A stretch of 64,000 nucleotides of DNA from a virus (IMGVR_UViG_3300011977_000001); one strand, 5' to 3'. Positions 26,966 through 43,465 are shown, counted from the first letter of the stretch. The notes: generated by a model not told the origin, from the sequence alone. Program-made: numbers and translations.

Positions 26966-28372
26966 TTAAACTGCGCTGTATCTGAATGTGTAATTCAGAT
27001 AAATCTTTTCCAGAGAATCGAGGTCGTCAAGAGCGATCAGGAACCATGCAGAGTCACCCTGATGCGGTCTGTCTGGATCCTCAATGAACGAATAGCCGGC
27101 CTGAATCTTTCCTTCTGCGAACATTGCATCCAGAACATCGGTTCCGAGCTTTATGACATTTGCAATTCCATCATCGTCATTGTCGATTCTTCCTGACAGC
27201 GGGTCGAGTGTTCTGTCGATACGGTCCATCGCTTCCTGACGAACCTTTACACGGCGAATCTTCTTCCAGCCTGCATCCTGATCACTGTTCGGATTGACCA
27301 GTGTAGTAACACCGGACTCAACTCTGACAGTGCCATCAGCAGCAGAGCTGAACATTACGCAGCCGTGCTGGATAGCCTCTATGTGCTGAGAATCGGTAAG
27401 GACCTCTCCCAGGTCTTCCATGTCAGTGACAGTCGCATGTACGATCGAGTCATTGGACGGAGTAGAAGCGATCATTCCAGCCACAATAGCCGCTGCTTCA
27501 TAACCCTCAACCAGGTCTCCGTCTGTGTCGATTGCGGAACCGCCGACATAAACCACGTTCTCATCATTGAATGCTGCTGAATGCTGGATTCTGGTCTTAA
27601 AGGCAACGCTCTTCGGTTCACCAACAACTGCGATAAACAGAGCTCCCAGGGACTTCATTCTTGTAACGAACGCATGAACCAGGGTGTGAACCGCCGGGTC
27701 GCCTGAATCTACACACAGAACATTGAAGCGATACGCTTCCAGAAGTGAAAGCGCAGTGCTGTAATTTTCTGTCTTAGTAGTCGGGTTCGTTCCTGCGGTA
27801 ATCGATGCCTGAGTAACATCAGCGATCTTTCCGGTCGCACCATCAGCTGTCTTTGCGGTGAATACTGCTGAATACTGATTGACTGCATCAACCAGGTTCT
27901 GAATTTCGCTGTCGCCGGCAACAAAATTGACCTTCTCGATCACAGTCGTTCCTTCATAAACGATCAGTTCCTTCATTCCTGCGTCTGCAAGAGTAGACTG
28001 AATCGTAACCTTGAAAGCACGATCAGACGGATACTTTGTGCTCAGGGTTACAGCAACCTTTTCGCCTGCCTTAACCTCATAACTTCCTGAAGTACCATCA
28101 GCGCCGACACGAACAACTCTCAGTTTGTTCGCTCCTGCCTGAAGTGCCCGGAACGCCACCTTCTTGACGCTATCGCTCTTGCCGTAAAGTTCTTCGAGCT
28201 CTGCCACGGTAGTGATCTCGTCACCAACTCCCAGAGGCCCCCAGTCTGCCTGGATGACTGCTGCGACAGTACCATCGTCTGCGCCTGCGACAACACCCAC
28301 GCTAGTGGTGGTGTATCTGCGGTACACGCCTGGTCTGACCTTTGTTTCACCGACTGTGTATAAAGATGCCAT
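26966..28372 (-). CDS. contractile tail sheath protein (XkdK-like)
   Basis: 468-aa ORF with the N-terminus MASLYTVGETKVRPGVYRRY. The call is supported by size and position ahead of the tube gene. Confidence 0.8.
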   Translation of the reverse strand: MASLYTVGETKVRPGVYRRYTTTSVGVVAGADDGTVAAVIQADWGPLGVGDEITTVAELEELYGKSDSVKKVAFRALQAGANKLRVVRVGADGTSGSYEVKAGEKVAVTLSTKYPSDRAFKVTIQSTLADAGMKELIVYEGTTVIEKVNFVAGDSEIQNLVDAVNQYSAVFTAKTADGATGKIADVTQASITAGTNPTTKTENYSTALSLLEAYRFNVLCVDSGDPAVHTLVHAFVTRMKSLGALFIAVVGEPKSVAFKTRIQHSAAFNDENVVYVGGSAIDTDGDLVEGYEAAAIVAGMIASTPSNDSIVHATVTDMEDLGEVLTDSQHIEAIQHGCVMFSSAADGTVRVESGVTTLVNPNSDQDAGWKKIRRVKVRQEAMDRIDRTLDPLSGRIDNDDDGIANVIKLGTDVLDAMFAEGKIQAGYSFIEDPDRPHQGDSAWFLIALDDLDSLEKIYLNYTFRYSAV

Positions 28373-31008: not shown

Positions 31009-32028
31009 TCAAACGCAGTCAGACAGGAACGCACCCAGGTCCTGAGAAGTAACCTTCATATCCATAGACATAAGGCCCTCAATGTACTCGGAATGAGTTC
31101 CGTTCTCGCCGGTCCACTGCAGAACCGGAAGATAATTGCCATCTCCCAGCGGATCCCATGTGAAGATGTAGCCTGCGGACGGCTCTTCGATAGACGGTGC
31201 ATCGGTAGCGTACAGAAGCAGTGCCCCCTTCGGGTCGCAGATGAAATCCATCTGACCATCAGCACCGGTCTTTGCCTTATTGACGATCGAGTCAAATACG
31301 ACAACCTTATCGACTCCAAACAGGGTTGCGAGAACATTCTCGTTTGCCTGAGCCGGGTTAGAAGACGAGCCCTGGCCGGTAACACGCTCGATGATTGACG
31401 GATGATTGATCAGTGCGTTGTAGGTTTCCTCACCAAGACCCAGCTTATTCGGCTTGCGGCCCTTCTTCTTCAGGTCAGAAATCAGATTGCGGAAAAACGG
31501 AATCGGTTCAGAGTTGGAATCGCTGAACTTCACGAAGCTATTGGAAGCGGATGCGTTATCAGCTCCAGCCATGTCGGTTCCCCACACGCCCTTCTTGAAG
31601 AACTTCTCAGCGAAGAGAATATCCTGATGAATAGCCATCTGCTGAGAAATTGTCTTGGTCTTCATGTTCTGCTTGTTCATGAATGCCGGTGCATTGGTTC
31701 TTGCATAGTTGATCTGCTCAATCTGGTCAATGCCAAGGATGATCTGCTCAACGGTGCAGTCGTAAACGCCAGTCTCATGTGCGATCTGAGCCGGGTCAAC
31801 CTTGCCGAACTGAGGTTTTGCATGAACGTTGTCACGCAGCAGGTCTTCTTTGGACCAGATGTAGTAAGATGCGCTGGACAGTCTTACCGGAAGAATCGGG
31901 AACAGGGACTTTGCCGGTCTGTTCTGCTCATTCTGGAAATAAGCCATCGCCATAGTTGTCAGGTAAATATTGGGATTAAAAGCTCCCTTTGCGATTGCGG
32001 TAGAAATATCGCCAGTATTAACGGACAT
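31009..32028 (-). CDS. major capsid protein
   Basis: 339-aa ORF following the scaffold and decoration genes. The call rests on size and position, with a strong SD context. Confidence 0.75.
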   Translation of the reverse strand: MSVNTGDISTAIAKGAFNPNIYLTTMAMAYFQNEQNRPAKSLFPILPVRLSSASYYIWSKEDLLRDNVHAKPQFGKVDPAQIAHETGVYDCTVEQIILGIDQIEQINYARTNAPAFMNKQNMKTKTISQQMAIHQDILFAEKFFKKGVWGTDMAGADNASASNSFVKFSDSNSEPIPFFRNLISDLKKKGRKPNKLGLGEETYNALINHPSIIERVTGQGSSSNPAQANENVLATLFGVDKVVVFDSIVNKAKTGADGQMDFICDPKGALLLYATDAPSIEEPSAGYIFTWDPLGDGNYLPVLQWTGENGTHSEYIEGLMSMDMKVTSQDLGAFLSDCV

Positions 32029-32052
32029 TCTTATACCCTCCTTTTATCTGGT

Positions 32053-32448
32053 TTACGCATTCTTCTGATACTTCGTCATCTGGAAGTAGAAGAACTCACC
32101 TGCTGATGCAGACTCAAGAGCGATGCCTGCAACAAAGTTGCCAGCTGCTGCCTTAGCGGCGGTTCCGGTCGCATCGGTAGCGATCTCGTCACCCTTTGCG
32201 ATCTCTGCGCCTGCCTTAGCAAGTCCGATGTCTTTAATCTGGACATCAACGTTTGCGTCCTTTTCTAGGTTGACACGATTGGTGATAATTCCAACACCAA
32301 ATACGACTTCACCTGCGGTATCAGCCGGGACGACTTTACCATCAACGTACTTGAGGAACTTTCCTCTTACGTCTTCAATAGCTGCGCCAGCGGTCTCAGC
32401 AAATACTGCTGAATTGTTGATCTGGCTTGTCATATAAGTCTTAGCCAT
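32053..32448 (-). CDS. head decoration protein (DUF2190-like)
   Basis: 131-aa Gly/Ala/Val-rich ORF between the scaffold and capsid genes. The sequence style (…GDEIATDATGTAAKA…AGIALESA…) is typical of DUF2190 proteins. Confidence 0.6.
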   Translation of the reverse strand: MAKTYMTSQINNSAVFAETAGAAIEDVRGKFLKYVDGKVVPADTAGEVVFGVGIITNRVNLEKDANVDVQIKDIGLAKAGAEIAKGDEIATDATGTAAKAAAGNFVAGIALESASAGEFFYFQMTKYQKNA

Positions 32449-32463
32449 TGTATTTTCCTCCTT

Positions 32464-33618
32464 TTATCTCCTGCGGTTCTGCTCGTACTCAAGTGCAATC
32501 TCCGGATGATCGGACCATGCCTTTGCTTTCGCATCGATATAGTTCATTCCCGGCTGCGACTTGATGTACGACTTTGCAATCTGCTCAATCCTGGACTCCG
32601 GGTCATCGGATGACGGTCCTGCGAAGGACTTTCCGATTTCGCCAAAGACACTGGACTTCTCATAAAGGGATAGTGTCTTGTCCAGGTTGTCCAGATAAGA
32701 CTTGTAGATACCATCACCGGCCTGCTTCATCTCATAAAGGGTTTCTGCAAGTTTGTCCGGGTCCTCTCCGATCGTCTCATACTTCTTGGCGATCTCGGTG
32801 AGCTCCTGCATATCGAATCTCTTCTGAAGAACTGCGATGTTCTCCTCCTGCTTTTTCAGCAGATTCTTATATGCTGCGCTCTTTGCTACATCGGACTTCT
32901 TGCAAGCCTTCTTTACGCACTTCTTAGTGACCGGCTTGGTCTCAGGTGCTTCCTCCGGTACATCTTCCTCGGTATCGTCCTCGGGCTCTTCGTCCCCGGT
33001 GTCATCCTGGTATTCGGCATCGTCCTCTTCACCATCATCCTCGTACTCGTCCTCAGACTCCTCAATCTCATCATCCTCGGAATAATCCTCAGAATCTTCT
33101 GTGTCGTCCTCCTCCTCGTAGTCGGAATCTTCCTCTTCATCCTCAGCCTTTGTGACCTTGCCGCACTTCTTTGTAACCTTGCCACATGCCTTTCCGATCA
33201 GTGCGGACAGCTGCTCCTTCTCCTCGTCAGTCAGGTTTTCGCTCTTGAGCATGTCACCATACTTGGCTGTAACGTCATCCTCTTCTGCCGGTTCCTTCTC
33301 GAAGGAATAGCTCTTGATAATGTCGTTGTACATTGCTTCATTGAACTGGACCAGACTCTTCGCAAGAAGGTCTCTTGCCTCACTGTCGGTGATGTCCTGA
33401 TCGTCCATAATGGACTTATAGGACTTGTAGAGGCAATCGAGATTGGTCCCGGTTGCTTCCATTGACTTATTCACCATCACATCCACCTCGTCTGCTGATT
33501 TCAAAATTGGTGTCTCCGCATCTGCGCTCTTATAGAGCTTGATGTCTGCATCCGGGTTTGCACCTCTCCGGACCAGATCAACACTTTTCAAAATCATGTG
33601 CTTTAATCTGTTTGCCAT
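32464..33618 (-). CDS. scaffolding protein with a long D/E-rich tract
   Basis: ATG 33618 has an AAAGGAGA SD. The N-terminus SVDLVRRGANPDA resembles the N-terminal VSxVDKGAN motif of XkdF-type proteins. The centre contains about 70 acidic residues. The gene lies upstream of the decoration and capsid genes. Confidence 0.6.
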   Translation of the reverse strand: MANRLKHMILKSVDLVRRGANPDADIKLYKSADAETPILKSADEVDVMVNKSMEATGTNLDCLYKSYKSIMDDQDITDSEARDLLAKSLVQFNEAMYNDIIKSYSFEKEPAEEDDVTAKYGDMLKSENLTDEEKEQLSALIGKACGKVTKKCGKVTKAEDEEEDSDYEEEDDTEDSEDYSEDDEIEESEDEYEDDGEEDDAEYQDDTGDEEPEDDTEEDVPEEAPETKPVTKKCVKKACKKSDVAKSAAYKNLLKKQEENIAVLQKRFDMQELTEIAKKYETIGEDPDKLAETLYEMKQAGDGIYKSYLDNLDKTLSLYEKSSVFGEIGKSFAGPSSDDPESRIEQIAKSYIKSQPGMNYIDAKAKAWSDHPEIALEYEQNRRR

Positions 33619-33700
33619 CTTGGTCTCCTTTCTTTCAATATTTGCTGGCAAATTTATCTGGTCGGGTCTCCCCGGATCAGCGTCCTCATGTTTCTCTGGA

Positions 33701-34132
33701 TCATGTCTCTGGCCTCCTGTTCTGCTCCATGTACCTGTTCAGACTATCTTCGAAATTTGGAAGCAATTTCCGTTTCCTGAGCTCCGACTCGCTCAGCCAT
33801 CGTGCGTGAAGCATTTCAACCTCATCTGTTTTCGGTTCTCCCTTAAACTCGTCCGTCCAGAAATAGACGGTTTTGCTCAGGGTATTTCCAAATTTTGTTC
33901 TGTTCAGTGGCCTGAGATGGAGTGGTATGATATTGAACTCTTCTTTTGCCTCCCTCTTAGCCGCCTGCTGTGGGGTCTCTCCCCACTCAGCGTGGCCTCC
34001 TGGTCCACAAAGCCCTCTACCATCACTTCGTTCTCCTACGAGAAACTTTCCGTCCCGCACTACCAGGACTGCCGCTGAATGCGTTTTCGTATCAGCGTTC
34101 TTCCGAATTTGCTCAAATGTCTGTGCAGCCAT
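33701..34132 (-). CDS. NUDIX hydrolase carrying the shared N-terminal leader (MAAQTFEQIRK)
   Basis: The Nudix box is GHAEWGETPQQAAKREAKEEFNI (G-x5-E-x7-RE-x2-EE). The first 11 aa match the leader of gene 45637..47385 (MRAQTFEQIKK). Confidence 0.8.
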   Translation of the reverse strand: MAAQTFEQIRKNADTKTHSAAVLVVRDGKFLVGERSDGRGLCGPGGHAEWGETPQQAAKREAKEEFNIIPLHLRPLNRTKFGNTLSKTVYFWTDEFKGEPKTDEVEMLHARWLSESELRKRKLLPNFEDSLNRYMEQNRRPET

Positions 34133-34134
34133 CG

Positions 34135-35061
34135 TTACCTCATTGGAACTCGCTTACCCTGCCCTGCGATCGAGAACATCTGATATGTTCCGTTCTTTAC
34201 AAGCTCCCAGGTCCGTGGGTCATCAACTTTGAAGCCTATCCACCATCCAAGCGGCACCGTTCCCTGCGGGATTCCCATTGCTTTCAACTTCTCGTCCGTA
34301 AAGACTACGGACTCGACCAGACGACATTTGTTCTGAAGCATCGGGTTATGTTCCTCTCCGCCCGTATGCCAGTTCAGAACATATTCATACACAGCCTTTT
34401 CGAGTTCCTGCGGGGAAACCATATCTCCCTGAAGATCCAGGACCTGCTCTCCGTTCTTTCGTTCAGAGACGTTTGCCCATCCGAATACCAGCTGCTGATC
34501 GTCAACAGACTTTTTTACCATGAACTCGGTTTCTTCTGGCTCTTCCTCTTTCTTCGGTTCTTTACCATCAGACTCATCCGGTTCCTCAGAATCTTCTTCC
34601 TCAACTCCATACACAGCCTGCGGAATATCCGCCGAAAGACTCAGCTGCTGTTTCCTGAACGGCAACCCAGGTTCAACATATCCAAGAGTCATATGCGGTC
34701 TGTAGACTTCAAAGTCTCCGACAACATTCATTCCCATATTTCTGAGAATACGGAGAAGTTTTGACCGAAGTGCTTCGAGCTGCCCCTGCTGCACTCTTGC
34801 ATAGATCACGTCTTTACCATCGCTGCTCTCAGACGCATCGAATCGCCCAGTTTCATCGAACTGAATCTTCTCAGGAATGTCATTTGTGACCTCACTGATT
34901 GCTTCCTCGACTCTCTTCTCTGCCTCCTCAGTAGTCAGGGTAGTGTTTCTTACCCATCCATAAATCAGAGTTATGTGGAGGTCATCGGTGTCCTCAGTGT
35001 GAGCAATGTCATCCGGGTTATTCAGCACTGTTTTCAATGCGATATAAACTTTCAAATCCAT
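34135..35061 (-). CDS. fusion of a 2H phosphoesterase (LigT/Acb1-like fold) with an XkdF-like putative prohead protease domain
   Basis: The N-terminal half has two H-x-T motifs (HITLIYG, HMTLGYV). The C-terminal half, QQLVFGWANV...LQGDMVSPQELEKAVYEY...VESVVF...GWWIGFKVDDPRTWELVKNGTYQMFSIAG, parallels B. subtilis XkdF as I recall it. Confidence 0.65.
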   Translation of the reverse strand: MDLKVYIALKTVLNNPDDIAHTEDTDDLHITLIYGWVRNTTLTTEEAEKRVEEAISEVTNDIPEKIQFDETGRFDASESSDGKDVIYARVQQGQLEALRSKLLRILRNMGMNVVGDFEVYRPHMTLGYVEPGLPFRKQQLSLSADIPQAVYGVEEEDSEEPDESDGKEPKKEEEPEETEFMVKKSVDDQQLVFGWANVSERKNGEQVLDLQGDMVSPQELEKAVYEYVLNWHTGGEEHNPMLQNKCRLVESVVFTDEKLKAMGIPQGTVPLGWWIGFKVDDPRTWELVKNGTYQMFSIAGQGKRVPMR

Positions 35062-35182
35062 TTGCTATCACCTCAAAACGCACATTTGTGTCTTCCTGAT
35101 TTGCATAATAGTGCACCTGTGCACACTGCTTCAATGAGCCAGGTGATTTTTTGACAACTTTTGTGCGGACTTTCATAATGAA

Positions 35183-35737
35183 TTACTTAGTCCGTTTCTT
35201 TTTAGGTCTTGAATTGCCGCCTCTGAGAATGTCATAGACCTGATTGTTGCGTTTCCATGAATCGTCATACTTTCTGCCAGCCTGGCGTGTAGTTGCCGTT
35301 GTCCCGGTCTTCTTGTTCTGTCTTCTTACTCTCTTCAGGCGGTTTTTCCTCTCTCTTGCGGACTCAACGGGTTCGCCAGCCTGTGAAAGATGATGTGTAC
35401 GGGTGTACTGTCTCTGAGCGTCACCTATTTTCTTCGCATTTTTGCGATGATTCTCGTAGACATCAGTTCCTTCGGCATCATCGTCTACCCTCGTTCCAAC
35501 CATGCGTACCCCGCTTCCGAGCTTTCCAGTACGAACAACCTCACGGGCGATTGCTCTGTTATGAGCTTTGCTTGCTCCCGGCTTATACGTAAATGAAACA
35601 GCATTCGGTCCAGTTGAGAAGCGGCCAAGTGCATCGTGGAACGGGTTGAACTTTTCAATATCTTTCTCTTCAACTGCTTTGAAGTCTGCGTCTTTCGATG
35701 CAGTCTTCATAATGTCAAAAAACAGTTCAGCCATCAT
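35183..35737 (-). CDS. leader-tagged basic protein of unknown function
   Basis: The start MMAELFFDIMK at 35737/35734 follows AAAGGGG. The core motif KFNPFHDALGRF is at 35618..35653. The C-terminal half is very R/K-rich. Confidence 0.6.
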   Translation of the reverse strand: MMAELFFDIMKTASKDADFKAVEEKDIEKFNPFHDALGRFSTGPNAVSFTYKPGASKAHNRAIAREVVRTGKLGSGVRMVGTRVDDDAEGTDVYENHRKNAKKIGDAQRQYTRTHHLSQAGEPVESARERKNRLKRVRRQNKKTGTTATTRQAGRKYDDSWKRNNQVYDILRGGNSRPKKKRTK

Positions 35738-36716
35738 TTTCCCCTTTCTTCTTATTTCCCAGCTCAACCAGATCTCCCAGGACGGTTGCCAGCTTTTCGT
35801 CCTTTTTGAACAGGTCATTGAGCAGTGGAAGCGCCACTTCCACCATCTGTGGATGCGGTGCTCCTGTGGTTCCTAGTGCCCTCAATTCAAAGAAGTGCCT
35901 CCACTCCCTCATGTTTGCAGTCATAACCAGTTCTGTTTTTACAGAAATCGGAAGTACAGACCGAGCCATCTGAGGAGTCACGTTTCCACCGATCATTGTT
36001 TCGTAAGCGTCTTCTGTGCCTTCGGCAATCTTGTTCCACCAATCTCCTGGCCAGTCATTCTCTGGGAACTCGAACGGTTTGACAAATGTCACTCCATTAC
36101 CATAGTTGCAATACCTTGTGCTTTCCTGGGCGAAAGACGCTTCTCTATGTCTCACAATCTCGTGTGAAACTCCCCTGTCGCAGATGAATTTCACGGTGAG
36201 GTCGTAATGAACCATCATTTCCCTGGGCGAAAGGTTTTCTTTATCCAGCTCTGTGTATTTTGAGGTGAGCTTTCCAGCAGTGATCTTGCTGAAATCGATC
36301 ATGTCAAATATCGGAAAATATTTTTTCTGCTGGAATATCTCGGCTAGGTCCTTTGAAATTCTGCAGTTATTTCTGGCGCAGGCTTCGAAGAACTCCAACC
36401 ATGCCCGCATGTTCCCTGAAACAATGTTTCTTCCGGAATATTCAAAGCTAGTGGCTCTGAGTTTCAGCAACTCACCATAGTTCTGCACGAATATCGTGCA
36501 CAGTCTAGGAACTTCATCCGTCCTGCTTTCCAGGATGATTGATGCATGTTCAAGCATTGCATAGTGCTTATGTTTCACCAGGGCTCGTACCATCTTTACG
36601 GCTGAGCCCTCTGTGATCCTCTTTTCGGACTTGTAACAAGTCCTCGCTACCTTCTCGATCTTCTTCACCGGATCCTTCTCGGTGATAATCTCGTGTCCCG
36701 CCTTGACTAGCTTCAT
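35727..36716 (-). CDS. thyX: flavin-dependent thymidylate synthase
   Basis: The ThyX signature RHR..S.QESTRY is present as VRHREASFAQESTRY, together with a downstream ...REWRHFFELR... motif. Confidence 0.85.
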   Translation of the reverse strand: MKLVKAGHEIITEKDPVKKIEKVARTCYKSEKRITEGSAVKMVRALVKHKHYAMLEHASIILESRTDEVPRLCTIFVQNYGELLKLRATSFEYSGRNIVSGNMRAWLEFFEACARNNCRISKDLAEIFQQKKYFPIFDMIDFSKITAGKLTSKYTELDKENLSPREMMVHYDLTVKFICDRGVSHEIVRHREASFAQESTRYCNYGNGVTFVKPFEFPENDWPGDWWNKIAEGTEDAYETMIGGNVTPQMARSVLPISVKTELVMTANMREWRHFFELRALGTTGAPHPQMVEVALPLLNDLFKKDEKLATVLGDLVELGNKKKGENDG

Positions 36717-37714
36717 TCATTTCTCCCGTTTCTGAACCATGCATGTCTTACTTTCACGTCAGCAGACTTGTTGATCTCACTGAAAAGGGAATAGGATTTC
36801 TCAAATGTCCCGCTAGACGGAAGGCCCAGCTGTGCCAGGTCATCCACACGCCCTCCCTGTCTCTTCATCGGTTTGATATGATGCTGCCTCAGAATTTCGT
36901 CTGTCTCTTTATCATTCAGAAGTCGATCAACTCTCATTGAACCTGTGATCCACCATGGATTCGTATCGGTTCTCGGGTTTGTTCTGTACTTGTAGCAGCC
37001 TCCCTTTGGAAGTTTGGGGAGCCCAGCCAGAGAATGCTGGAACTTTCCGGTCTTTGTGTACCCGTAGCTCATTGCTTCTTCCTGGTAGTCGTGATCTGCA
37101 TCGATCGTGCACTCAGCCCATACAAAGTTCTTTGGAAAAAGAGTCCTCACACCATCATCGTCTTTGCGAGCGAACTGCTTAGCGTCCGGTGTGTCTCCAA
37201 GATGCCAACCAGGTCTGTAAGCAAGTTTTCCGCTGCCTCCCTGTGTACCTTTTCCTCCCTGCTTTACCTGAGGTCTCCCAGTCTTTGAGGTCCCGGCTTT
37301 CTCGCCTTCTCTCGCATCAAGCCAAACGCCAAATGGAGTAGGAGCTCCGCCAGGGTTTGCAACCATTGGAGGATACAGCTTCCCGTTTTTCGTGAAGAAA
37401 ACTTTATATGCTTTCCTGGTATTTCTCGGAGGTGGGTCCTTCCTCAGGAAAGTGCAGTTTGCAATATCCTCGGCATTCGTGGTCTGGGGCACCGGTGCTT
37501 TCGGTTTTCTCCTTTTCTTCGGCTTTGCTGTCGTTTTTCCTGCAGACGCACTCGAATGAGTTCTTGCCTCAGTAGTTGATGCAGCCATGATTTTCTTCGC
37601 AGATGTGTGGCTATCAGGAACCGTTGTCTTTGCACCACCACCGCTTGTGAACTTACCATCCTTGCCGTGGTACGGGTTGTACTTTGTAAGCCAAACGTAC
37701 TGATCTGTGTTCAT
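36713..37714 (-). CDS. motif-tagged protein of unknown function
   Basis: The protein starts MNTDQYVWLTKYNPYHGKDGKFTSGG, with the core motif at 37649..37684. A Ser/Thr/Lys-rich linker and a ~230-aa unknown domain (..LAYRPGWH..VWAEC..YRTNP..WWITG) follow. Confidence 0.6.
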   Translation of the reverse strand: MNTDQYVWLTKYNPYHGKDGKFTSGGGAKTTVPDSHTSAKKIMAASTTEARTHSSASAGKTTAKPKKRRKPKAPVPQTTNAEDIANCTFLRKDPPPRNTRKAYKVFFTKNGKLYPPMVANPGGAPTPFGVWLDAREGEKAGTSKTGRPQVKQGGKGTQGGSGKLAYRPGWHLGDTPDAKQFARKDDDGVRTLFPKNFVWAECTIDADHDYQEEAMSYGYTKTGKFQHSLAGLPKLPKGGCYKYRTNPRTDTNPWWITGSMRVDRLLNDKETDEILRQHHIKPMKRQGGRVDDLAQLGLPSSGTFEKSYSLFSEINKSADVKVRHAWFRNGRNE

Positions 37715-37815: not shown

Positions 37816-37840
37816 AAAAAAAGAGTGGCCGAAGCCACTC
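37816..37840 (-). terminator. rho-independent terminator
   Basis: The minus strand reads GAGTGGC-TTCG-GCCACTC followed by TTTTTTT. Confidence 0.8.
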
Positions 37841-38161: not shown

Positions 38162-41100
38162 TCAAGTAAAAGAATAGCCGAATCTTAATTCATCGAACGA
38201 TACAGCACAGTCAAAGCTCTTCGATACTCCTGCTGCACCATCAGGACCAGCCTCAACCACGTAAATCGTTGTCTTTCTCGCTCCGCTCGGCCAGGTCTGT
38301 TCTTCTTTGTGAAGTACCGTCCAGGAAGCCTTAGAGCTCGCCATGACCTCTTTTTCTCCGTAGGTAGATAAGTGATCGACTGGTGCGGCAGTCCTGTTGT
38401 GCAGGCATACAATCATAACAGAATCCTCATCATTTGCGCCTACATGAGCAAAGTTCAGCCCGACTGCTTTGTCGCTTGACCATGAGCTCATCCTGCCTCG
38501 CATATCGATCGTTGCGCCTTTGCCGGCCTTTTTCATGAACTCGTCATAGTCTTCACGCCTGCCGAAATGTATTCCTCGATACATCGTACCATCAAATGCT
38601 GGTGCTCTGTCCAGGTAGACTTCTGCTGCATCCTGGTCGGACTTTCTGAGTGTTTCATCAGCAAAATACTTTTCCAGCCCTTTCAGGCTTTTCTCTACTG
38701 AACCTCGGTCCAGTCCGGAGTCTTCTTGCATGTGTTTCAGCCTTGCTTCGATGTATCCTTCTCTCTCCCCTTCTTTTATGATACTGATCTGCCCTTTTGT
38801 CGGCTTTGTTGGCCGATAATCCCCATTTTGCTGAAGCAACTGGAAGCCATCGTCCAGAACATCTTTCATTTTCCCAGAGTTGAATGCCTCTATACAGTCA
38901 TCTTCAGAAATAAAGCCGTTGTCGATTGCATACAGAGCCTGATCAGAATCATCTCCATCGTCAAGCTGTTTCCGTACTTCTTTCAGGTGATTCCACCAGG
39001 AAGAGGACCCGGCCTCAGCTTTTGCTTTGATCTTCATTTCACCATGAGAGTTGCTTGTGTGCTGCTTAGTAGTCTTTCCTGTATGAGCTTTTCCTTTTCC
39101 TGGCTTGTAGTTGATGACTAAGGCGGCAGCGGTTCCGGTCGTAAATTTCCCGTCCTTACCGTGATACGGATTATACTTTTCAATAGCACTCTTCTCGACT
39201 TCTTTACCATCACTGTATGACGGCCAGAAGCCGAACTCATTCAGACTATCGCCGGCGAACTGAATCTCTTTAGCTTTAACTTTGAATGCATGTACTGGGA
39301 CGTTTTCATATCTTCCTTCTCCTTTTGCATAAGTTCTTGACAGTGATACCCAGTCGCCCTCATTCAGCTCGTCCTTCGGGCTTGCCCTATACACAGTCAC
39401 TTCTGCATCTGGGCTATCTTTGATCTTCCGCAGCGCAACCATCGATTCACGCAGCTCCGGTCCGTCAAGAGAATACCAGTCCGGGTGTTCCCAGAAATCA
39501 TCTGGAATCGCACCTTTCTCGGTTATGTCAAACGCTCTTCCTGACCTGCTCGGCCTGTGCTGAAGCGCATAATCCAGCTCCCCGCTCGGGTTATGCCTGT
39601 GTATTCTCTGGTCCGAATCGGGTTCTGATTTTGCTGCTTTCTTTCTCGGAACTGTAGATTTTGCGTTGCCTCCGGTTGTGAATTTACCATCAGCTCCGTG
39701 ATAAGGGTTGTATTTGTCTATTCTCTCTACCCCTAACATTTTCAAAACGGTATCATCCTGCAGACCATTCGCTGACTTACCGATGCCATCATCAGGGCCA
39801 GTCTCTACTACATAGATATATGTTTTTCTCGCTCCTTGATATTCAGTTGTTTCTGAGTACATTACCGTCCATCTTGCAGTTGAGCTTGCAAGAATCTCTT
39901 GTTCTCCCTGGCTGCTAATATGTGCGACCGGTGTTGATGTTCTGTTCTTTACGCACTGTATTACGACTGAATCCGCTTTTGAGTCTACTGCGTGCGCAAA
40001 TCCTCTGGCTATTTCTTCTAAGCTGGTCCATGAGCTAGGTTCGTCACGCATTCCAATCGTGCTTCCAGGCTTAACATGGGACATAAATTCGTCATACTGC
40101 TTGCTTCCCTTATCCCAGGCTATTCCTCGGTATGATATGCCATCAAACGCTGGAGATTTTGATACAAAATCATCGATCACATCACGGTCTTCTTCGTAGT
40201 AGGATCCTCCAAAATATTTTTTCAGTTTCTGGTAGTATTCCTCTGCTTTGTTCCTGTCTACTCCCGTATCTTCGCAGATATGTCTTAGCCTGGCTTCATC
40301 CCATCCAACTTTTGAGGCTTCTGCTGAAATGCTAGTCTGTCCTTTAGTCGGTTTTGTTGGGCGATAATCTCCATTTTTTTCGAGAATATTGAAGCCAGTG
40401 TCTAATAGCTCATCTGCAGTTCCTTCCTGCATAGCTTTTATACAGTCTGTTTGTGATGCGAAGTAATGTTTCTTTGCATACAGGGCTTTTTTGTTTTCTT
40501 TTTCTCCTCTTAGTTTGTCTCGCTCATTTTTTATATGATCGAACCACTCATTATTATGAGACTCATTCTCTCTTGAAATATCATTTTCATGCGTTTCACT
40601 GGTATGCGAAATATTACTTACCATCGAAGCGGCCATTTCCTTTTGGCTTGTCTTAAATGGAACAGTTGTCTTAGCATTTCCACCAGTCGTAAATTTCCCG
40701 TCTTTCCCGTGGTAGGGATTATATTTGACGATCTCTTCCAGGCTATTCATTCCAAGAAGTTTTGCGGTCGAATCATCAAATCCGAGCATCTTGGCAACTT
40801 TTACCATGGGTTCCGACTTCTCAATGCTCCCGTCTTCCTTTGTGACATAAAGGACCGGTATCTTGTCGAGTCCCAGGTTGTATGCAGCCATCGCACGATG
40901 TCTCCCCTCCTGGCCTCCGTTGCCTTCTCCGACATTCAGATACGGCATATCCATTTCCGTTCCGTTTTCCATCTTTCCAGCCAAGTTCTCAATGTTCTTC
41001 TTATCCAAACCCAGCACCTGGCTAAGGGCTGTTGTGGTTCCTTCCCCTGTTTCTTTCCCTGTGTTGAAGTTTGCTGCGCATCTTTCCAGATACTCTTCAG

Positions 41101-43300
41101 GGGACATTTCAACGATTGTGGCTTTCAGACCATGATCTCGTAAGTTTTCCCGATCATCGTAGAAACTGATTCCTGTACTATCCTTAAATCCCGGATAATG
41201 TTTCTGGCTTGCCGGTGTCGGTTCAGGCATATCTGCGTTTGTCTTTGGTCCACCATCTGCATTCGCTATGACCTGCTTCAGATGTTTGTTCGCCTGCTGT
41301 AAGTCTTCCAGGGCTTTATCAGACTTTTGAGCTGCTGCATGAAATTCTTCTCTTCCTTCTTCAGGTGGAAGTCCGATTGAAGCCATGAACTTATCATCCT
41401 CGGTCCATTGGTCCTTCGGCTTTTGTTTCAGGTTCTTGTATGCCCTGTCTTTCTCTGCATCTGCTTCATTAAATGCGTCTGCTGCAGCTTTCAGCCTTGC
41501 CCTTGCTTCTTTGTACTCTGACGTAGAAAGGACTTTCGCTCCGATCTCTTTCGAGTAGTCATGCATCGGTTCTCCACTCAGCTTCGATACTTTCTGTGAA
41601 TGAGCTGAGGTCCCATTCGGGTCCACTACAACGCCAGCCCCTGCTGCACAAAACCTCCCGTTTGCATCGTGATTGTGATTGTATTTCAGGATCTCACCAT
41701 CGATTTTGTCCAGGTCGCTCTGTGCATCGTCCGCTTTTTGAATGATTTCTTCTTCAGGCAGTCCCAGCATTTTCTGAATGATCTTCCTTTTTGCCGGTTC
41801 CACCATCAAAAGCTGTGGGCAACGGACCGCTGATTTTTTCAAGCTGCTTCCTCCTGCAAACTGTCCCTGTGTATGATCGATCCAGGCTACATCTTCCAGT
41901 TTTACTGTTCTTGAATACGGGGGATTTCCGCCATAAGAGACCGCATCCTCCCGGCTCGGTGTTACAAAAATTCCGTTCGTGATCGGATGTGAGGAATATA
42001 TTCTGATCTTTCCCGTCTTCAATGCTTTCTGTGCATCAGCCCAGGTATAATCATCTGTATAGTCGTCTCCTGGTTCAAATCCCTCATTAGCCAAGTTTTC
42101 AGGCTGAAGTGTCTCGGCAAATGTCTTAATGTCATCGACTGATCTTATCCATGTCTGATAGCTATTCGGTGCGGGATTGCCGGCCGTAACGATCTTGAAC
42201 TGTCTCTTTTTCAGGTCCGCTACACTTTCTGTGCTTTCTTTGGCTTCCGCTTCTGGTGTCTTTCCACCATCGCCTGTGACATTGTGCCCAGCTCCGACAA
42301 ACTTGCCGTCCTTCCCGTGATTATGATTGTATTTTTCTATCGATTCTTCTGCAGACTTCTCAACATCATCCGGTATCCGATAAATGACATTCAGCTGATA
42401 ATCTTTATCACCCATGACAGGCTGTGCTCCGACCAATTCCAGCTTTTTGTTTCTCCCCAGTACCACTTCGCTCTCGCCCTCATTATCTGTAACAAGTGCA
42501 TGTGTTCCCTCTGGTGTCAGAATTGAAACTCTTACAGGACGATCTCTGAAGTAATTCAGCTCGCTAGCCATCGATGCCGACATATATCCAGGGTTTCTAA
42601 GCATCTTTCCAGTGTGCTTATTGATCTGATCTGCGATAGCCTGTACGGATTGAAGATCCCACTTGCCTGATTTGACCGCTCTCTCAACATCTTCTCCGAT
42701 TGCATACACACTTTGAATGTCGTTCATCCTGGTCAACATGACCTCTTTTTTCAAAGTATCTGCGTGTGTTGCTTTATCCAGTTCGCCAATCAGATCATCT
42801 TTCAAGCTCTCTTTCATCAAGTACATTTCAACTTCAATTTCCCGATCGGTTTTTCCTTCTTTTTTCAGATGTTCTCTATAAGATTCCTCAGTTCCGCCGC
42901 ACCGAAGATAAGCATTGATTCTTTTGGATTTACCATTGTTTACATATTCGTTCTGCGCTCTTCTGACAGCTTCAGCGGTATCTTTGTCCATCGGCTTTTC
43001 TCTTGTTGGGCCCTGCTTATTCAAATAGGCCCAATAATCAGTTTCGGACATGTCCTGGTATGTTTTCCCACCTACTGTGATCTTTTCGCCTGAATATCGT
43101 GTCATGTACTCATCCATCTGGGCAAAGTTATAGCCGCTGGTATCTTCATTCATGTCCACCTGTTCAAAACTCAATCCGCTATCGCCATCACCGGTTACAT
43201 TCTGGCCACTTGGTGCAAATTTTCCGTCCTTCCCGTGGTTGTGGTTATATTTGAGTATGCTGACTCTGTTCTTTCGTGCTTCTGTGAACAGTATTGCCAT
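38162..43300 (-). CDS. giant polyvalent effector protein (~1712 aa): six leader-delimited modules including three ADP-ribosyltransferase domains and a ParB/Srx-like domain
   Basis: I chose ATG 43300 (MAILFTEARK; AAAGGAG SD) over the track start at 43360. Core motifs lie at 43217, 42299, 41651, 40691, 39680 and 39143. ART triads are INAYLR/YMSAS/EGESEVV, YRG/SSWTS/QGEQEIL and YRG/SSWSS/YGEKEVM. The ParB-like motif is GQEGRHRAMAA...IPV. Confidence 0.8.
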   Translation of the reverse strand: MAILFTEARKNRVSILKYNHNHGKDGKFAPSGQNVTGDGDSGLSFEQVDMNEDTSGYNFAQMDEYMTRYSGEKITVGGKTYQDMSETDYWAYLNKQGPTREKPMDKDTAEAVRRAQNEYVNNGKSKRINAYLRCGGTEESYREHLKKEGKTDREIEVEMYLMKESLKDDLIGELDKATHADTLKKEVMLTRMNDIQSVYAIGEDVERAVKSGKWDLQSVQAIADQINKHTGKMLRNPGYMSASMASELNYFRDRPVRVSILTPEGTHALVTDNEGESEVVLGRNKKLELVGAQPVMGDKDYQLNVIYRIPDDVEKSAEESIEKYNHNHGKDGKFVGAGHNVTGDGGKTPEAEAKESTESVADLKKRQFKIVTAGNPAPNSYQTWIRSVDDIKTFAETLQPENLANEGFEPGDDYTDDYTWADAQKALKTGKIRIYSSHPITNGIFVTPSREDAVSYGGNPPYSRTVKLEDVAWIDHTQGQFAGGSSLKKSAVRCPQLLMVEPAKRKIIQKMLGLPEEEIIQKADDAQSDLDKIDGEILKYNHNHDANGRFCAAGAGVVVDPNGTSAHSQKVSKLSGEPMHDYSKEIGAKVLSTSEYKEARARLKAAADAFNEADAEKDRAYKNLKQKPKDQWTEDDKFMASIGLPPEEGREEFHAAAQKSDKALEDLQQANKHLKQVIANADGGPKTNADMPEPTPASQKHYPGFKDSTGISFYDDRENLRDHGLKATIVEMSPEEYLERCAANFNTGKETGEGTTTALSQVLGLDKKNIENLAGKMENGTEMDMPYLNVGEGNGGQEGRHRAMAAYNLGLDKIPVLYVTKEDGSIEKSEPMVKVAKMLGFDDSTAKLLGMNSLEEIVKYNPYHGKDGKFTTGGNAKTTVPFKTSQKEMAASMVSNISHTSETHENDISRENESHNNEWFDHIKNERDKLRGEKENKKALYAKKHYFASQTDCIKAMQEGTADELLDTGFNILEKNGDYRPTKPTKGQTSISAEASKVGWDEARLRHICEDTGVDRNKAEEYYQKLKKYFGGSYYEEDRDVIDDFVSKSPAFDGISYRGIAWDKGSKQYDEFMSHVKPGSTIGMRDEPSSWTSLEEIARGFAHAVDSKADSVVIQCVKNRTSTPVAHISSQGEQEILASSTARWTVMYSETTEYQGARKTYIYVVETGPDDGIGKSANGLQDDTVLKMLGVERIDKYNPYHGADGKFTTGGNAKSTVPRKKAAKSEPDSDQRIHRHNPSGELDYALQHRPSRSGRAFDITEKGAIPDDFWEHPDWYSLDGPELRESMVALRKIKDSPDAEVTVYRASPKDELNEGDWVSLSRTYAKGEGRYENVPVHAFKVKAKEIQFAGDSLNEFGFWPSYSDGKEVEKSAIEKYNPYHGKDGKFTTGTAAALVINYKPGKGKAHTGKTTKQHTSNSHGEMKIKAKAEAGSSSWWNHLKEVRKQLDDGDDSDQALYAIDNGFISEDDCIEAFNSGKMKDVLDDGFQLLQQNGDYRPTKPTKGQISIIKEGEREGYIEARLKHMQEDSGLDRGSVEKSLKGLEKYFADETLRKSDQDAAEVYLDRAPAFDGTMYRGIHFGRREDYDEFMKKAGKGATIDMRGRMSSWSSDKAVGLNFAHVGANDEDSVMIVCLHNRTAAPVDHLSTYGEKEVMASSKASWTVLHKEEQTWPSGARKTTIYVVEAGPDGAAGVSKSFDCAVSFDELRFGYSFT

Positions 43301-43465
43301 ATGCTTGCTCCTTTCTGTGCGTCCACCTGCCTTAACTTTATGCATTAGTACGTTTTTCATAAAGGATTCAGGTCACATTCAACGGGGTACGCATTTGACA
43401 GAGCATAAAAAAGACGGCTGCCCTGGTTTTTGCCATGACAACCGTCTTTTACTGATTTGTTTATT

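What the first reader, a model, noticed from the sequence alone, without database searches (positions are those of the whole stretch)
33701..36716. Nucleotide-metabolising enzymes embedded in the capsid assembly block: 2H-phosphoesterase fused to XkdF-like domain, leader-tagged NUDIX, and ThyX
Gene 34135..35061 joins a two-HxT 2H phosphoesterase to the C-terminal domain of the XkdF-type putative prohead protease. The XkdF N-terminal motif (VSxVDKGAN-like, here SVDLVRRGANPDA) now sits at the start of the scaffold gene (33618). A NUDIX gene with the shared leader lies between them. The arrangement looks like an XkdF/scaffold gene that was split and invaded by enzymes.

2H phosphodiesterases include anti-CBASS Acb1-type enzymes that destroy cyclic-oligonucleotide signals. 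NUDIX enzymes can destroy ADP-ribose-derived or capped molecules. Packaging either enzyme would let the phage neutralise signalling-based immunity at the moment of injection. ThyX (35727..36716) in this block is also atypical.
Basis: inference. Interest (0 to 1): 0.62.

Follow-up and report, generated by a model that had tools for sequence, protein, structure and literature searches.

The report
Head protease fused to phosphodiesterase
In this gut phage the only recognisable head-maturation protease is fused to a small 2H phosphodiesterase, and the next gene is a NUDIX from a clade usually fused to head proteins, so both enzymes are probably loaded into the capsid and delivered with the DNA; this is a recurrent variant of a published idea, not a recently invaded gene.

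Summary
The domain calls hold.
- Gene 35061..34135 (minus strand) is a 2H phosphoesterase with two HxT motifs, followed by the complete Pfam XkdF/Peptidase_S78_2 core.
- 34132..33701 is a NUDIX with an intact Nudix box.
- 36716..35727 is a ThyX above the TIGR02170 cut-off.
- The scaffold (33618..32464) opens with the XkdF-type box SVDLVRRGAN...LYKS.

The fusion is not an artefact. The identical protein is on 53 contigs, and about 57 clusters (90% identity) share the architecture.

The "split and invaded" reading is only partly right. A separate XkdF-core gene plus a box-headed scaffold gene occurs in many unrelated phages, so the layout is old. Two real local rearrangements exist. ThyX sits exactly at a junction where relatives have one two-module tagged gene. 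The NUDIX half-leader arose when a 235-aa tagged gene was deleted.

The NUDIX clade is mostly fused to XkdF cores (22 of 81) or portals (19 of 81), which supports virion loading. Each phage has one XkdF core but many leader tags.

The 2H fold is closest to Acb1 and viral 2',5'-phosphodiesterases but fails the Acb1 Pfam cut-off. Its substrate is unknown. Packaged 2H and Nudix effectors were already proposed by Iyer et al. (2017, 2022). The leader tag was found earlier in this scan, on this genome.

The parts
34597..35061 (-). 2H phosphoesterase domain (residues 1-155 of the 308-aa protein), with HxT motifs at H29 and H123
   Evidence: Pfam 2_5_RNA_ligase2 and AKAP7_NLS both exceed their cut-offs. 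The AF2 model has pLDDT 92-98 across this domain. Foldseek against PDB gives probability 1.0 to Acb1, rotavirus VP3 CTD, LigT, AKAP18 and MHV ns2. Translation checked.
34513..34596 (-). Acidic, disordered linker (residues 156-183)
   Evidence: pLDDT is below 50 for residues 160-183. The sequence is EEDSEEPDESDGKEPKKEEEPEETEF.
34135..34512 (-). XkdF / Peptidase_S78_2 core (residues 184-308 plus stop). Invariant H238, S251 and S297. It is the only recognisable head protease in the genome.
   Evidence: Pfam score 77 bits, covering profile positions 4-124 of 126. Invariant columns come from alignment A1. There is one copy in the 101-kb record. The genome has no S78, ClpP, S77, S49 or Mu-like_Pro match.
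33701..34132 (-). NUDIX hydrolase, 143 aa. It starts 2 nt after the XkdF stop codon.
   Evidence: Pfam NUDIX 67.7 bits. The closest solved structure is BdRppH-like 3ees, followed by MutT. No NCBIfam equivalog cut-off is reached. The clade is mostly fused to XkdF cores or portals.
34100..34132 (-). Half leader MAAQTFEQIRK on the NUDIX, left over from the start of a deleted tagged gene
   Evidence: The DNA from the XkdF stop to the ATGGCTG start matches the start of the 235-aa tagged gene in L144. From the 'IRK' codons onward it matches the NUDIX of L018.
32464..33618 (-). Scaffolding protein (384 aa from the ATG at 33618) with an acidic middle region
   Evidence: phrog_17741 matches residues 72-392. 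Its position before the cement and major capsid genes is conserved in L018, L019 and L144.
33526..33609 (-). XkdF-type N-terminal box RLKHMILKSVDLVRRGANPDADIKLYKS
   Evidence: Translation checked. The same box heads the scaffold-position ORFs (about 300-450 aa where complete) in more than 30 loci, opens canonical XkdF proteins, and lies between the core and the scaffold in psiM2 ORF12.
35727..36716 (-). ThyX (329 aa), translationally coupled on both sides, with an insert of about 110 aa (residues 61-179)
   Evidence: TIGR02170 exceeds its cut-off. The RHREASFAQESTRY motif and the ATGA / ATGATGGCTGA overlaps are visible in the sequence. The insert is seen against solved ThyX structures.
36713..37714 (-). 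Tagged 333-aa cargo module (phrog_30118). It corresponds to the N-terminal module of a single gene in relatives.
   Evidence: It is 58% identical to residues 39-312 of the L019 488-aa protein. The tag is at 37681.
35183..35737 (-). Tagged 184-aa module (MMAELFF...EKFNPFHDALGRF). It corresponds to the C-terminal module of the same gene in relatives.
   Evidence: It is 53% identical to residues 318-486 of the L019 488-aa protein.
37823..37840 (-). Terminator-like hairpin that closes the upstream polyvalent-protein unit. The block 37714..31009 lies downstream of it.
31009..32448 (-). Cement protein (32448..32053) and major capsid protein (32028..31009)
   Evidence: Pfam Phage_cement_2 and phrog_1005.

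Best explanation
The 308-aa protein is the phage's head-maturation protease (XkdF-type core) with a catalytically intact 2H phosphodiesterase as an N-terminal passenger.

Proposed mechanism:
1. Prohead proteases are built into the procapsid together with the scaffold. The fusion therefore loads the 2H domain into the head without a separate address tag. Docking may use the scaffold's N-terminal SVDLVxxGAN box, which in canonical XkdF sits on the protease itself.
2. After maturation the folded 2H domain stays in the capsid and enters the next host with the DNA.
3. There it hydrolyses a nucleotide substrate. The candidates are cyclic-oligonucleotide or 2'-5' alarm signals, or 2',3'-cyclic phosphate RNA ends.

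The NUDIX next door belongs to a clade that is normally a module of XkdF-, portal- or toxin-containing head polyproteins, so it is most likely a second loaded enzyme. ThyX is a metabolic passenger of the late operon, not cargo.

Shown here: domain identities, recurrence of the fusion, single-copy status of the XkdF core, the fusion partners of the NUDIX clade, and the local rearrangements.

Inferred: protease activity, packaging, ejection and substrate.
For: - Domains are established by Pfam, AF2 and Foldseek.
- The fusion recurs. The identical protein is on 53 contigs, and about 57 clusters at 90% identity carry 2H plus XkdF with both HxT motifs at constant spacing.
- A full-length match in BFVD shows another 2H-XkdF fusion.
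- The XkdF core is single-copy in this genome and in 21 of 21 positive tag-bearing phage records, whereas tags are many per genome.
- No other head-protease family is present in this genome.
- H238, S251 and S297 are invariant in the fused forms.
- Elsewhere the XkdF core is fused to ART-PolyVal, NUDIX, GNAT, Gln_amidase and ChaB domains.
- Of the 150 closest NUDIX representatives, 123 exceed 250 aa. Of the first 81, 22 carry XkdF and 19 carry Phage_portal_3.
- The order 2H-XkdF, (cargo), NUDIX, box-scaffold, cement, MCP is conserved in L018, L019 and L144.
- Published inference for the class exists: PMC5512222 section 20, and PMC9503650 sections 3.4.5 and 3.5.2.
- The psiM2 XkdF homologue ORF12 is annotated 'structural protein'.
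Against: - There are no virion proteomics for any member.
- The protease fold is not established. There is no significant PDB match. T4 gp21 (5jbl_B) is only the best full-length alignment (TMq 0.41, E 0.43).
- Many prohead proteases digest themselves and leave the capsid, so retention of the 2H domain is assumed.
- The window's NUDIX has only half a leader, and that half arose by deletion, so it may not be loaded at all.
- The 2H domain fails the Acb1 family cut-off.
- The NUDIX resembles MutT/RppH more than ADP-ribose enzymes.
Confidence: 0.58

Rival explanations
1. Trigger-linked antidote. The 2H domain works late in the producing cell, not after injection. Prohead protease activity is what many CBASS CD-NTases sense. 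A phosphodiesterase that destroys the cyclic-oligonucleotide alarm is therefore fused to the trigger and made with it one-to-one, at the same time and place.
For: Hobbs and Kranzusch (2026 preprint, 10.64898/2026.03.04.709575) report that T4 gp21 is sufficient to activate CBASS and that about 24% of CBASS operons have protease-sensitive activation loops. The best Foldseek E-value for the 2H domain is to the anti-CBASS nuclease Acb1 (7t27, 1.3e-5). The fusion with the protease core recurs in about 57 clusters.
Against: The same XkdF core is also fused to ARTs, NUDIX, GNAT and papain-fold toxins. 2H domains are also fused to MuF and portal proteins (PMC5512222). General cargo loading explains all of these fusions, whereas this reading explains only one. 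Acb1 family membership is not met. CBASS in the unknown host has not been examined.
Confidence: 0.12
2. RNA-end enzymes rather than signal destroyers. The 2H domain acts as a LigT-like 2',3'-cyclic phosphodiesterase or Usb1-like RNase. The NUDIX acts as an RppH/MutT-like pyrophosphohydrolase. Together they would heal RNA cut by host anticodon nucleases or start decay of host mRNA. Whether they are packaged is a separate question.
For: The best sequence families are 2_5_RNA_ligase2 and TIGR02258 'RNA 2',3'-cyclic phosphodiesterase' (33.6 bits, below its cut-off). The closest solved relatives of the NUDIX are an RppH-like pyrophosphohydrolase (3ees) and MutT. Iyer et al. 2017 list the RNase option alongside signal degradation.
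Against: No RNA ligase was noticed in this block. Iyer et al. note that polyvalent-type 2H domains never associate with RNA ligases. The compact fold of about 150 aa superposes best on viral 2',5'-phosphodiesterases (TMt 0.70) and Acb1.
Confidence: 0.22
3. One reading: an ancestral one-piece XkdF (box, core, scaffold) was recently split in this phage and invaded by 2H and NUDIX genes.
For: The pieces of a canonical XkdF are distributed over the two genes, with NUDIX between them.
Against: - The two-gene layout occurs in L001, L009, L012, L014, L015, Rhizobium phages and many tag-bearing loci. The N-terminal partners differ and 0 to several genes lie in between.
- psiM2 has the order core, box, scaffold, so the box travels with the scaffold module.
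- The N-terminal box and first 31 scaffold residues are identical in L018 and L019, although the 2H-XkdF proteins are only about 60% identical.
- The only recent events detectable here are a deletion and the ThyX presence/absence difference.
Confidence: 0.07
4. The XkdF core is not a protease here. It is a scaffold- or capsid-binding adaptor whose only job is to carry passengers into the head.
For: There is no significant structural match to any protease. The family is only a 'putative' protease in Pfam. It is fused to many different passengers.
Against: There is exactly one copy per genome. A generic adaptor would be expected on several cargo proteins, as the leader tag is. The His and Ser residues are invariant across fused and free forms. 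No other protease family is present in the genome. In the exceptions without XkdF, its place is taken by S78 or ClpP proteases.
Confidence: 0.13

Closest known systems
Head-protein-fused and polyvalent phage effectors (Iyer, Burroughs, Anand, de Souza, Aravind 2017, PMC5512222; Iyer et al. 2022, PMC9503650)
   Same: 2H and Nudix domains lie among late or head genes, fused to head proteins. They are predicted to be packaged and injected to counter nucleotide-based immunity. Enrichment in myoviruses is reported, and this phage has a sheath gene at 26966..28372. The neighbouring genes are ART, zeta and papain-fold toxin modules.
   Different: The papers name MuF and portal as partners of 2H. [quoted passage not shown] The term XkdF does not occur in the 2017 text. 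The 2H-XkdF-core architecture and the link to the box-headed scaffold are not described there.
T4 internal proteins and Alt with a capsid-targeting sequence, cleaved by the prohead protease gp21 (PMC9958956 section 3.1)
   Same: Enzymes are loaded into the prohead core and delivered with the DNA. The protease is part of the same assembly.
   Different: In T4 the cargo carries a CTS of about 10 aa and the protease is a separate protein. Here the cargo is fused to the protease itself and carries no tag.
Acb1 anti-CBASS 2H nuclease (PDB 7t26/7t27; Pfam PF23474)
   Same: It is a compact viral 2H fold with two HxT motifs. It gives the best Foldseek E-value (1.3e-5, probability 1.0).
   Different: The Pfam Acb1 score is 18 bits, below the cut-off of 27. 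TM-scores are higher to the rotavirus VP3 2',5'-phosphodiesterase (0.70 against 0.57). Acb1 is a free cytoplasmic protein, not a head-protein fusion. No activity is known for the window's domain.
PBSX XkdF and its one-piece relatives (box, core, scaffold tail). From my own knowledge, unchecked here: the fused or nested protease-scaffold genes of P2 (gpO), Mu (gpI/gpZ) and lambda (C/Nu3).
   Same: The core domain is the same (77 bits). The N-terminal box and the helical scaffold body are the same. All lie directly upstream of the capsid gene.
   Different: Here the box and scaffold are one gene and the core is another. The core has acquired an N-terminal enzyme.

Membership tests
2H phosphoesterase superfamily | Two H-x-T/S motifs | tested here: met
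   H29-I-T and H123-M-T. Both are kept at constant spacing in all 57 fused homologues.
2H phosphoesterase superfamily | Family HMM above the curated cut-off, and the 2H fold | tested here: met
   2_5_RNA_ligase2 scores 44 bits against 27, and AKAP7_NLS 29 against 24.4. The AF2 model has pLDDT above 92, and Foldseek gives probability 1.0 to more than 30 2H structures.
Acb1 (anti-CBASS, PF23474) | Pfam Acb1 model at or above the gathering score | tested here: not met
   18.0 bits against a cut-off of 27, E 0.0025. Relatives have only 'weak' hits.
Acb1 (anti-CBASS, PF23474) | Hydrolysis of CBASS cyclic di- and trinucleotides | not testable with these tools
   Needs an enzyme assay. Only fold resemblance is available (7t27: E 1.3e-5, TMt 0.57).
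XkdF / Peptidase_S78_2 (PF14550) | Family HMM above the cut-off over the full model | tested here: met
   77.2 bits against 24, covering profile positions 4-124 of 126. A six-frame search of the genome gives 79.2 bits.
XkdF / Peptidase_S78_2 (PF14550) | Canonical one-piece architecture: N-terminal VSLVDKxAN box, core, and scaffold-like tail in one polypeptide | tested here: not met
   The box and tail are in the separate gene 33618..32464. The core gene has a 2H domain instead.
XkdF / Peptidase_S78_2 (PF14550) | Serine-protease fold and catalytic His/Ser | tested here: inconclusive
   H238 and S297 are invariant, in the order His then Ser, 59 residues apart. However, there is no significant PDB match, and T4 gp21 reaches only TMq 0.41 with E 0.43.
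NUDIX hydrolases | Nudix box G-x5-E-x7-RE-U-x-EE-x-G-U, and the Pfam model | tested here: met
   The box reads GHAEWGETPQQAAKREAKEEFNI, with the final G replaced by N. Pfam scores 67.7 bits against 21.1.
NUDIX subfamilies (MutT, RppH, NudE, NudC) | Equivalog model above its cut-off | tested here: not met
   The best is MutT at 40.7 bits against 148. RppH scores about 20 bits and NudE 16.9 bits.
ThyX (FAD-dependent thymidylate synthase) | TIGR02170 equivalog cut-off and the RHRxxSxxxxSxR motif | tested here: met
   97.9 bits against 87.9. The motif RHREASFAQESTRY is present. There is an extra insert of about 110 aa compared with solved ThyX structures.
Leader-tagged head cargo of this phage (K[YF]NPYHGxDG[KR]F tag) | Full tag at the N-terminus or at a module junction | tested here: not met
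   There are 14 full tags between 54457 and 35618, but none in the 2H-XkdF protein or in ThyX. The NUDIX has only the first half.

The most novel reading that the evidence does not exclude
The phosphodiesterase is fused to the prohead protease because protease activity is the very signal that many CBASS systems sense. The phage would then make the alarm-destroying enzyme one-to-one with the alarm trigger, at the same time and place.

A second, compatible reading concerns the scaffold. Its N-terminal SVDLVxxGAN box would be a detachable piece of the XkdF fold that docks, and perhaps activates, the cargo-bearing protease in trans.
Probability: 0.12. Interest if true: 0.8.

Novelty: new variant of a known kind. 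Interest (0 to 1): 0.45.

Why it matters
- If the 2H and NUDIX enzymes are really delivered with the DNA, gut phages of Clostridia could disarm nucleotide-based immunity before any phage gene is expressed.
- The XkdF core would then be a natural chassis for loading enzymes into capsids.
- The box-headed scaffold paired with a separate core gives a concrete, testable handle on how an uncharacterised but very common head-protease family is recruited.
- The recent report that prohead proteases trigger CBASS makes a protease-phosphodiesterase fusion a pointed test case.

Tried and rejected
- Sequence search of the PDB with the protein and with its family profile found nothing for the XkdF core.
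- Foldseek of a canonical XkdF N-terminal model found no significant fold match. The protease fold therefore stays unproven.
- I tested whether the leader tag is tied to XkdF. It is largely tied (21 of 24 records, 18 of 20 near-complete) but not strictly. Two complete records use an S78 protease and one partial record uses ClpP. I therefore dropped 'XkdF is the dedicated tag receptor or protease'. I ran no base-rate control for PF14550 in untagged phages, and shared descent confounds the count.
- Literature searches for XkdF, psiM2 and BCSR5 gave nothing useful.
- Model coordinates are not exposed, so I could not check which strands pair with the N-terminal box. The trans-docking idea rests only on pLDDT contrasts.
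- The sigma-70 promoter scan found no more sites than shuffled sequence.
- My first idea, that ThyX is a recent insertion, is softened. ThyX is in the same slot in L144 and L145 at about 58% identity, so the direction (insertion or loss) is open.
Full report
**Setting.** The window is part of a 101,340-bp IMG/VR virus record estimated to be 96% complete. All genes discussed lie on the minus strand. Read 5' to 3' on that strand, the order is:
- terminase (59812..58355)
- Mu-type portal (58338..56635)
- about 21 kb of leader-tagged effector genes, including a 1732-aa polyvalent protein (43360..38162)
- a terminator-like hairpin (37840..37823)
- a tagged 333-aa gene
- ThyX
- a tagged 184-aa gene
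- the 2H-XkdF gene
- NUDIX
- scaffold, cement protein and major capsid protein
- head-completion genes and the tail sheath

The closest public DNA comes from human faecal samples. One homologue is named from a Faecousia MAG.

**Observation.** The domain calls are right.
- The 308-aa protein has a 2H phosphoesterase at residues 1-155. Pfam 2_5_RNA_ligase2 scores 44 bits and AKAP7_NLS 29 bits, both above cut-off. The HxT motifs are at H29 and H123.
- An acidic disordered linker follows.
- Then comes a Peptidase_S78_2/XkdF domain covering positions 4-124 of the 126-position model (77 bits).

This is the whole Pfam core, not a C-terminal fragment. In canonical XkdF proteins (L016, Bacillus and Clostridium prophages) the order is N-terminal box (ISFVSLVDKAANKKSFAIIKS), core, then a scaffold-like tail of about 230 aa. 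The window's scaffold, starting at the ATG at 33618, begins MANRLKHMILKSVDLVRRGANPDADIKLYKS. This is the same box. NUDIX and ThyX are both sound calls. The NUDIX 'leader' is only the first half of the tag that marks 14 sites in the effector block.

**The fusion is not an artefact.** The identical 308-aa protein is recorded on 53 contigs. About 57 clusters at 90% identity (42-65% identical to the query) carry 2H plus XkdF in one frame, and all keep both HxT motifs at constant spacing. Some of them add ART-PolyVal or other modules. BFVD holds another full-length 2H-XkdF match (341 aligned columns).

**What the XkdF core is.**
- It is single-copy here and in each of the 21 positive tag-bearing virus records.
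- This genome has no S78, ClpP, S77, S49 or Mu-like protease. The S77 and Mu-like searches also found nothing in any control genome, so they carry less weight.
- His238 and Ser297 are invariant. In the canonical numbering they are H92 and S147.
- The order His then Ser, about 55-59 residues apart, is as I recall for T4 gp21 and HK97 gp4. That comparison is from memory and was not checked.
- Structurally the case is open. No PDB hit is significant, and T4 gp21 is merely the best full-length superposition (TMq 0.41, E 0.43).
- In other phages the core is fused to ART-PolyVal, NUDIX, GNAT, Gln_amidase and ChaB, or to ParB-like domains annotated 'DNA methyltransferase/prohead protease' in Rhizobium phages.
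- One copy per genome with varied passengers fits an essential head protein used as a carrier. It does not fit a generic address domain.

**Split and invaded?** The two-gene layout is widespread. It consists of a core gene, often with N-terminal passengers, and a separate scaffold gene headed by the box.
- It occurs in the environmental phages L001, L009, L012, L014 and L015, in Rhizobium phages, and in dozens of tag-bearing loci. Between 0 and several genes lie between the two.
- In psiM2 ORF12 the order is core, box, scaffold in a single protein.
- The box therefore travels with the scaffold module, and the core can sit before it, after it, or in another gene.
- No box was found in the 16-18 kb around the S78 or ClpP proteases of tag-bearing phages that lack XkdF. 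Those records were not scanned in full.
- Relatives L018, L019 and L144 have 2H-XkdF proteins about 60% identical to the window's. They keep the order 2H-XkdF, tagged 235-aa gene, NUDIX, box-scaffold, cement, MCP.
- The layout is therefore old, and the direction of change (fusion or fission) is undetermined.

**Two real local rearrangements.**
1. *ThyX.* In L019 and L018 a single 488/548-aa gene covers both the window's 333-aa gene (58% identity, residues 39-312) and its 184-aa gene (53% identity, residues 318-486). ThyX lies exactly between them, at the module junction just before a tag. It is translationally coupled on both sides. L144 and L145 have ThyX in the same slot, with proteins 57-58% identical. 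This is a long-standing presence/absence difference.
2. *NUDIX half-leader.* The window's sequence from the XkdF stop through ATGGCTG matches the start of the 235-aa tagged gene of L144. From the IRK codons onward it matches the NUDIX of L018. A deletion between two E-I-[RK]-K coding stretches removed the 235-aa gene and the NUDIX N-terminal extension, leaving the half leader.

**Are the enzymes loaded into virions?** There is no direct evidence, but the fusion evidence is strong.
- Of the 150 closest 50%-identity cluster representatives of the NUDIX, 123 are longer than 250 aa and the median length is 621 aa.
- Among the first 81, 22 contain an XkdF core, 19 a portal (Phage_portal_3), 12 an ADP-ribosyltransferase and 3 a zeta toxin.
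- XkdF-NUDIX single chains exist (P0064, P0073, P0093).
- The 2H domain is covalently attached to the head protease.
- The psiM2 XkdF homologue is annotated as a structural protein.
- Iyer et al. already proposed that 2H domains fused to MuF or portal are packaged and injected to degrade immune nucleotides. They proposed the same for Nudix domains fused to MuF, portal or the capsid-processing serine peptidase.
- The finding is therefore a new architectural variant of a published class.

**Substrate.**
- The 2H model is very confident (pLDDT 92-98).
- Its best Foldseek E-value is to the anti-CBASS nuclease Acb1 (7t27, 1.3e-5).
- Its best TM-scores are to the rotavirus VP3 2',5'-phosphodiesterase (0.70). 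LigT, drCPDase, AKAP18 and MHV ns2 follow.
- It does not reach the Acb1 Pfam cut-off (18 bits against 27).
- The NUDIX is nearest to an RppH-like enzyme and to MutT, and reaches no equivalog cut-off.
- Signal degradation and RNA-end chemistry both remain possible.

**A newer angle.** A 2026 preprint reports that prohead proteases, T4 gp21 among them, activate CBASS by cleaving a loop in the CD-NTase. A phosphodiesterase fused to the protease could then be an antidote made together with the trigger. I rate this low (about 0.12), because the same core also carries many unrelated passengers.

**Docking idea.** In the AF2 model of a canonical XkdF N-terminus, the box forms a strand (residues 3-17, pLDDT 70-85) and the C-terminal strand carrying S147 is confident (pLDDT 75-79). 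In the window's box-less core, the equivalent strand (residues 297-308) falls below pLDDT 50. This is compatible with the scaffold box pairing with the core in trans.

**Relation to earlier scan notes.** The leader tag and the 1732-aa polyprotein were already reported for this genome (e1-3642096). HEAGH peptidase-like modules were proposed there as processing enzymes (e1-3599010, e1-3642098). Two results here add to those notes. Tag-bearing phages nearly always have one XkdF core, but can instead have S78 or ClpP proteases. Tags and half-tags also mark gene and module boundaries: many XkdF-module proteins end within 10 residues of an AKTFxELxx half-tag.

**Verdict.** The finding is a recurrent, previously undescribed variant (2H fused to the XkdF-type head protease core, with a dedicated virion-type NUDIX alongside) of the known class of head-packaged effectors.

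Noticed in passing
window 35727-37714; L019 8397-9863; L018 8219-9865: ThyX sits exactly at the junction of two tag-delimited modules that form a single gene in relatives L018 and L019. L144 and L145 have ThyX in the same slot. Tag junctions therefore behave as joints where genes can be inserted or lost without breaking modules.
   Followed up: yes
window 34100-34137 compared with L144 8856-8931 and L018 11742-11812: A deletion between two E-I-[RK]-K half-tag coding stretches removed a 235-aa tagged gene (with an HPxxxxFSxED-type domain) and the NUDIX N-terminal extension. This created the half-leader on the NUDIX.
   Followed up: yes
proteins P0060, P0064, P0071, P0073, P0075, P0083, P0090, P0093, P0094, P0096, P0098: Many XkdF-module proteins end within about 10 residues of a half-tag (AKTFxELxx). 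Stop codons therefore often fall between the half-tag and the YNPYHD core. This would fit a cleavage or joint site at that point.
   Followed up: partly
G005:C1:57342-57647 (L140), G018:C1:15444-15749 (L141), G021:C1:29177-29674 (L142): Tag-bearing phages without an XkdF core carry an HK97-type S78 protease embedded in a 611-637-aa ORF, or a ClpP-like protease. The tag system is therefore not tied to a single protease family.
   Followed up: partly
window 33526-33609 and more than 30 loci: A conserved box of about 28 aa (KLKxMxLxSVDLVRxGANxxADIxLYKS) heads the scaffold genes of XkdF-type phages. No Pfam model covers it. In the window's scaffold it is followed by repeated phi-K-S-A-D motifs (LYKSAD, ILKSAD) that look like processing sites.
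   Followed up: partly
window 35727-36716, residues 61-179 of ThyX: The ThyX has an insert of about 110 aa relative to solved ThyX structures. Versions of 315-345 aa form a large family in metagenomes, alongside versions of about 210 aa.
   Followed up: partly
L018 6721-8072: In relative L018 the block upstream of the head genes holds EcoRII-C and Vsr genes. This region is a variable accessory slot in the lineage.
   Followed up: no
L020 2716-3771 (psiM2 ORF12): The archaeal virus psiM2 has the XkdF core, then the box (VVTVSIVDRPAVPKARYLSIKRG), then a scaffold tail, all in one protein annotated as structural. The module spans both bacteria and archaea.
   Followed up: partly
L009 474-2210, L014 5712-8417: High-GC environmental phages have ParB-like polyvalent proteins that end in an XkdF core and carry a variant tag, DQPRDxxGRF.
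   Followed up: no
window 32464-33618: The scaffold contains a tandem KKCGKVTK repeat and an acidic tract of about 90 aa.
   Followed up: no
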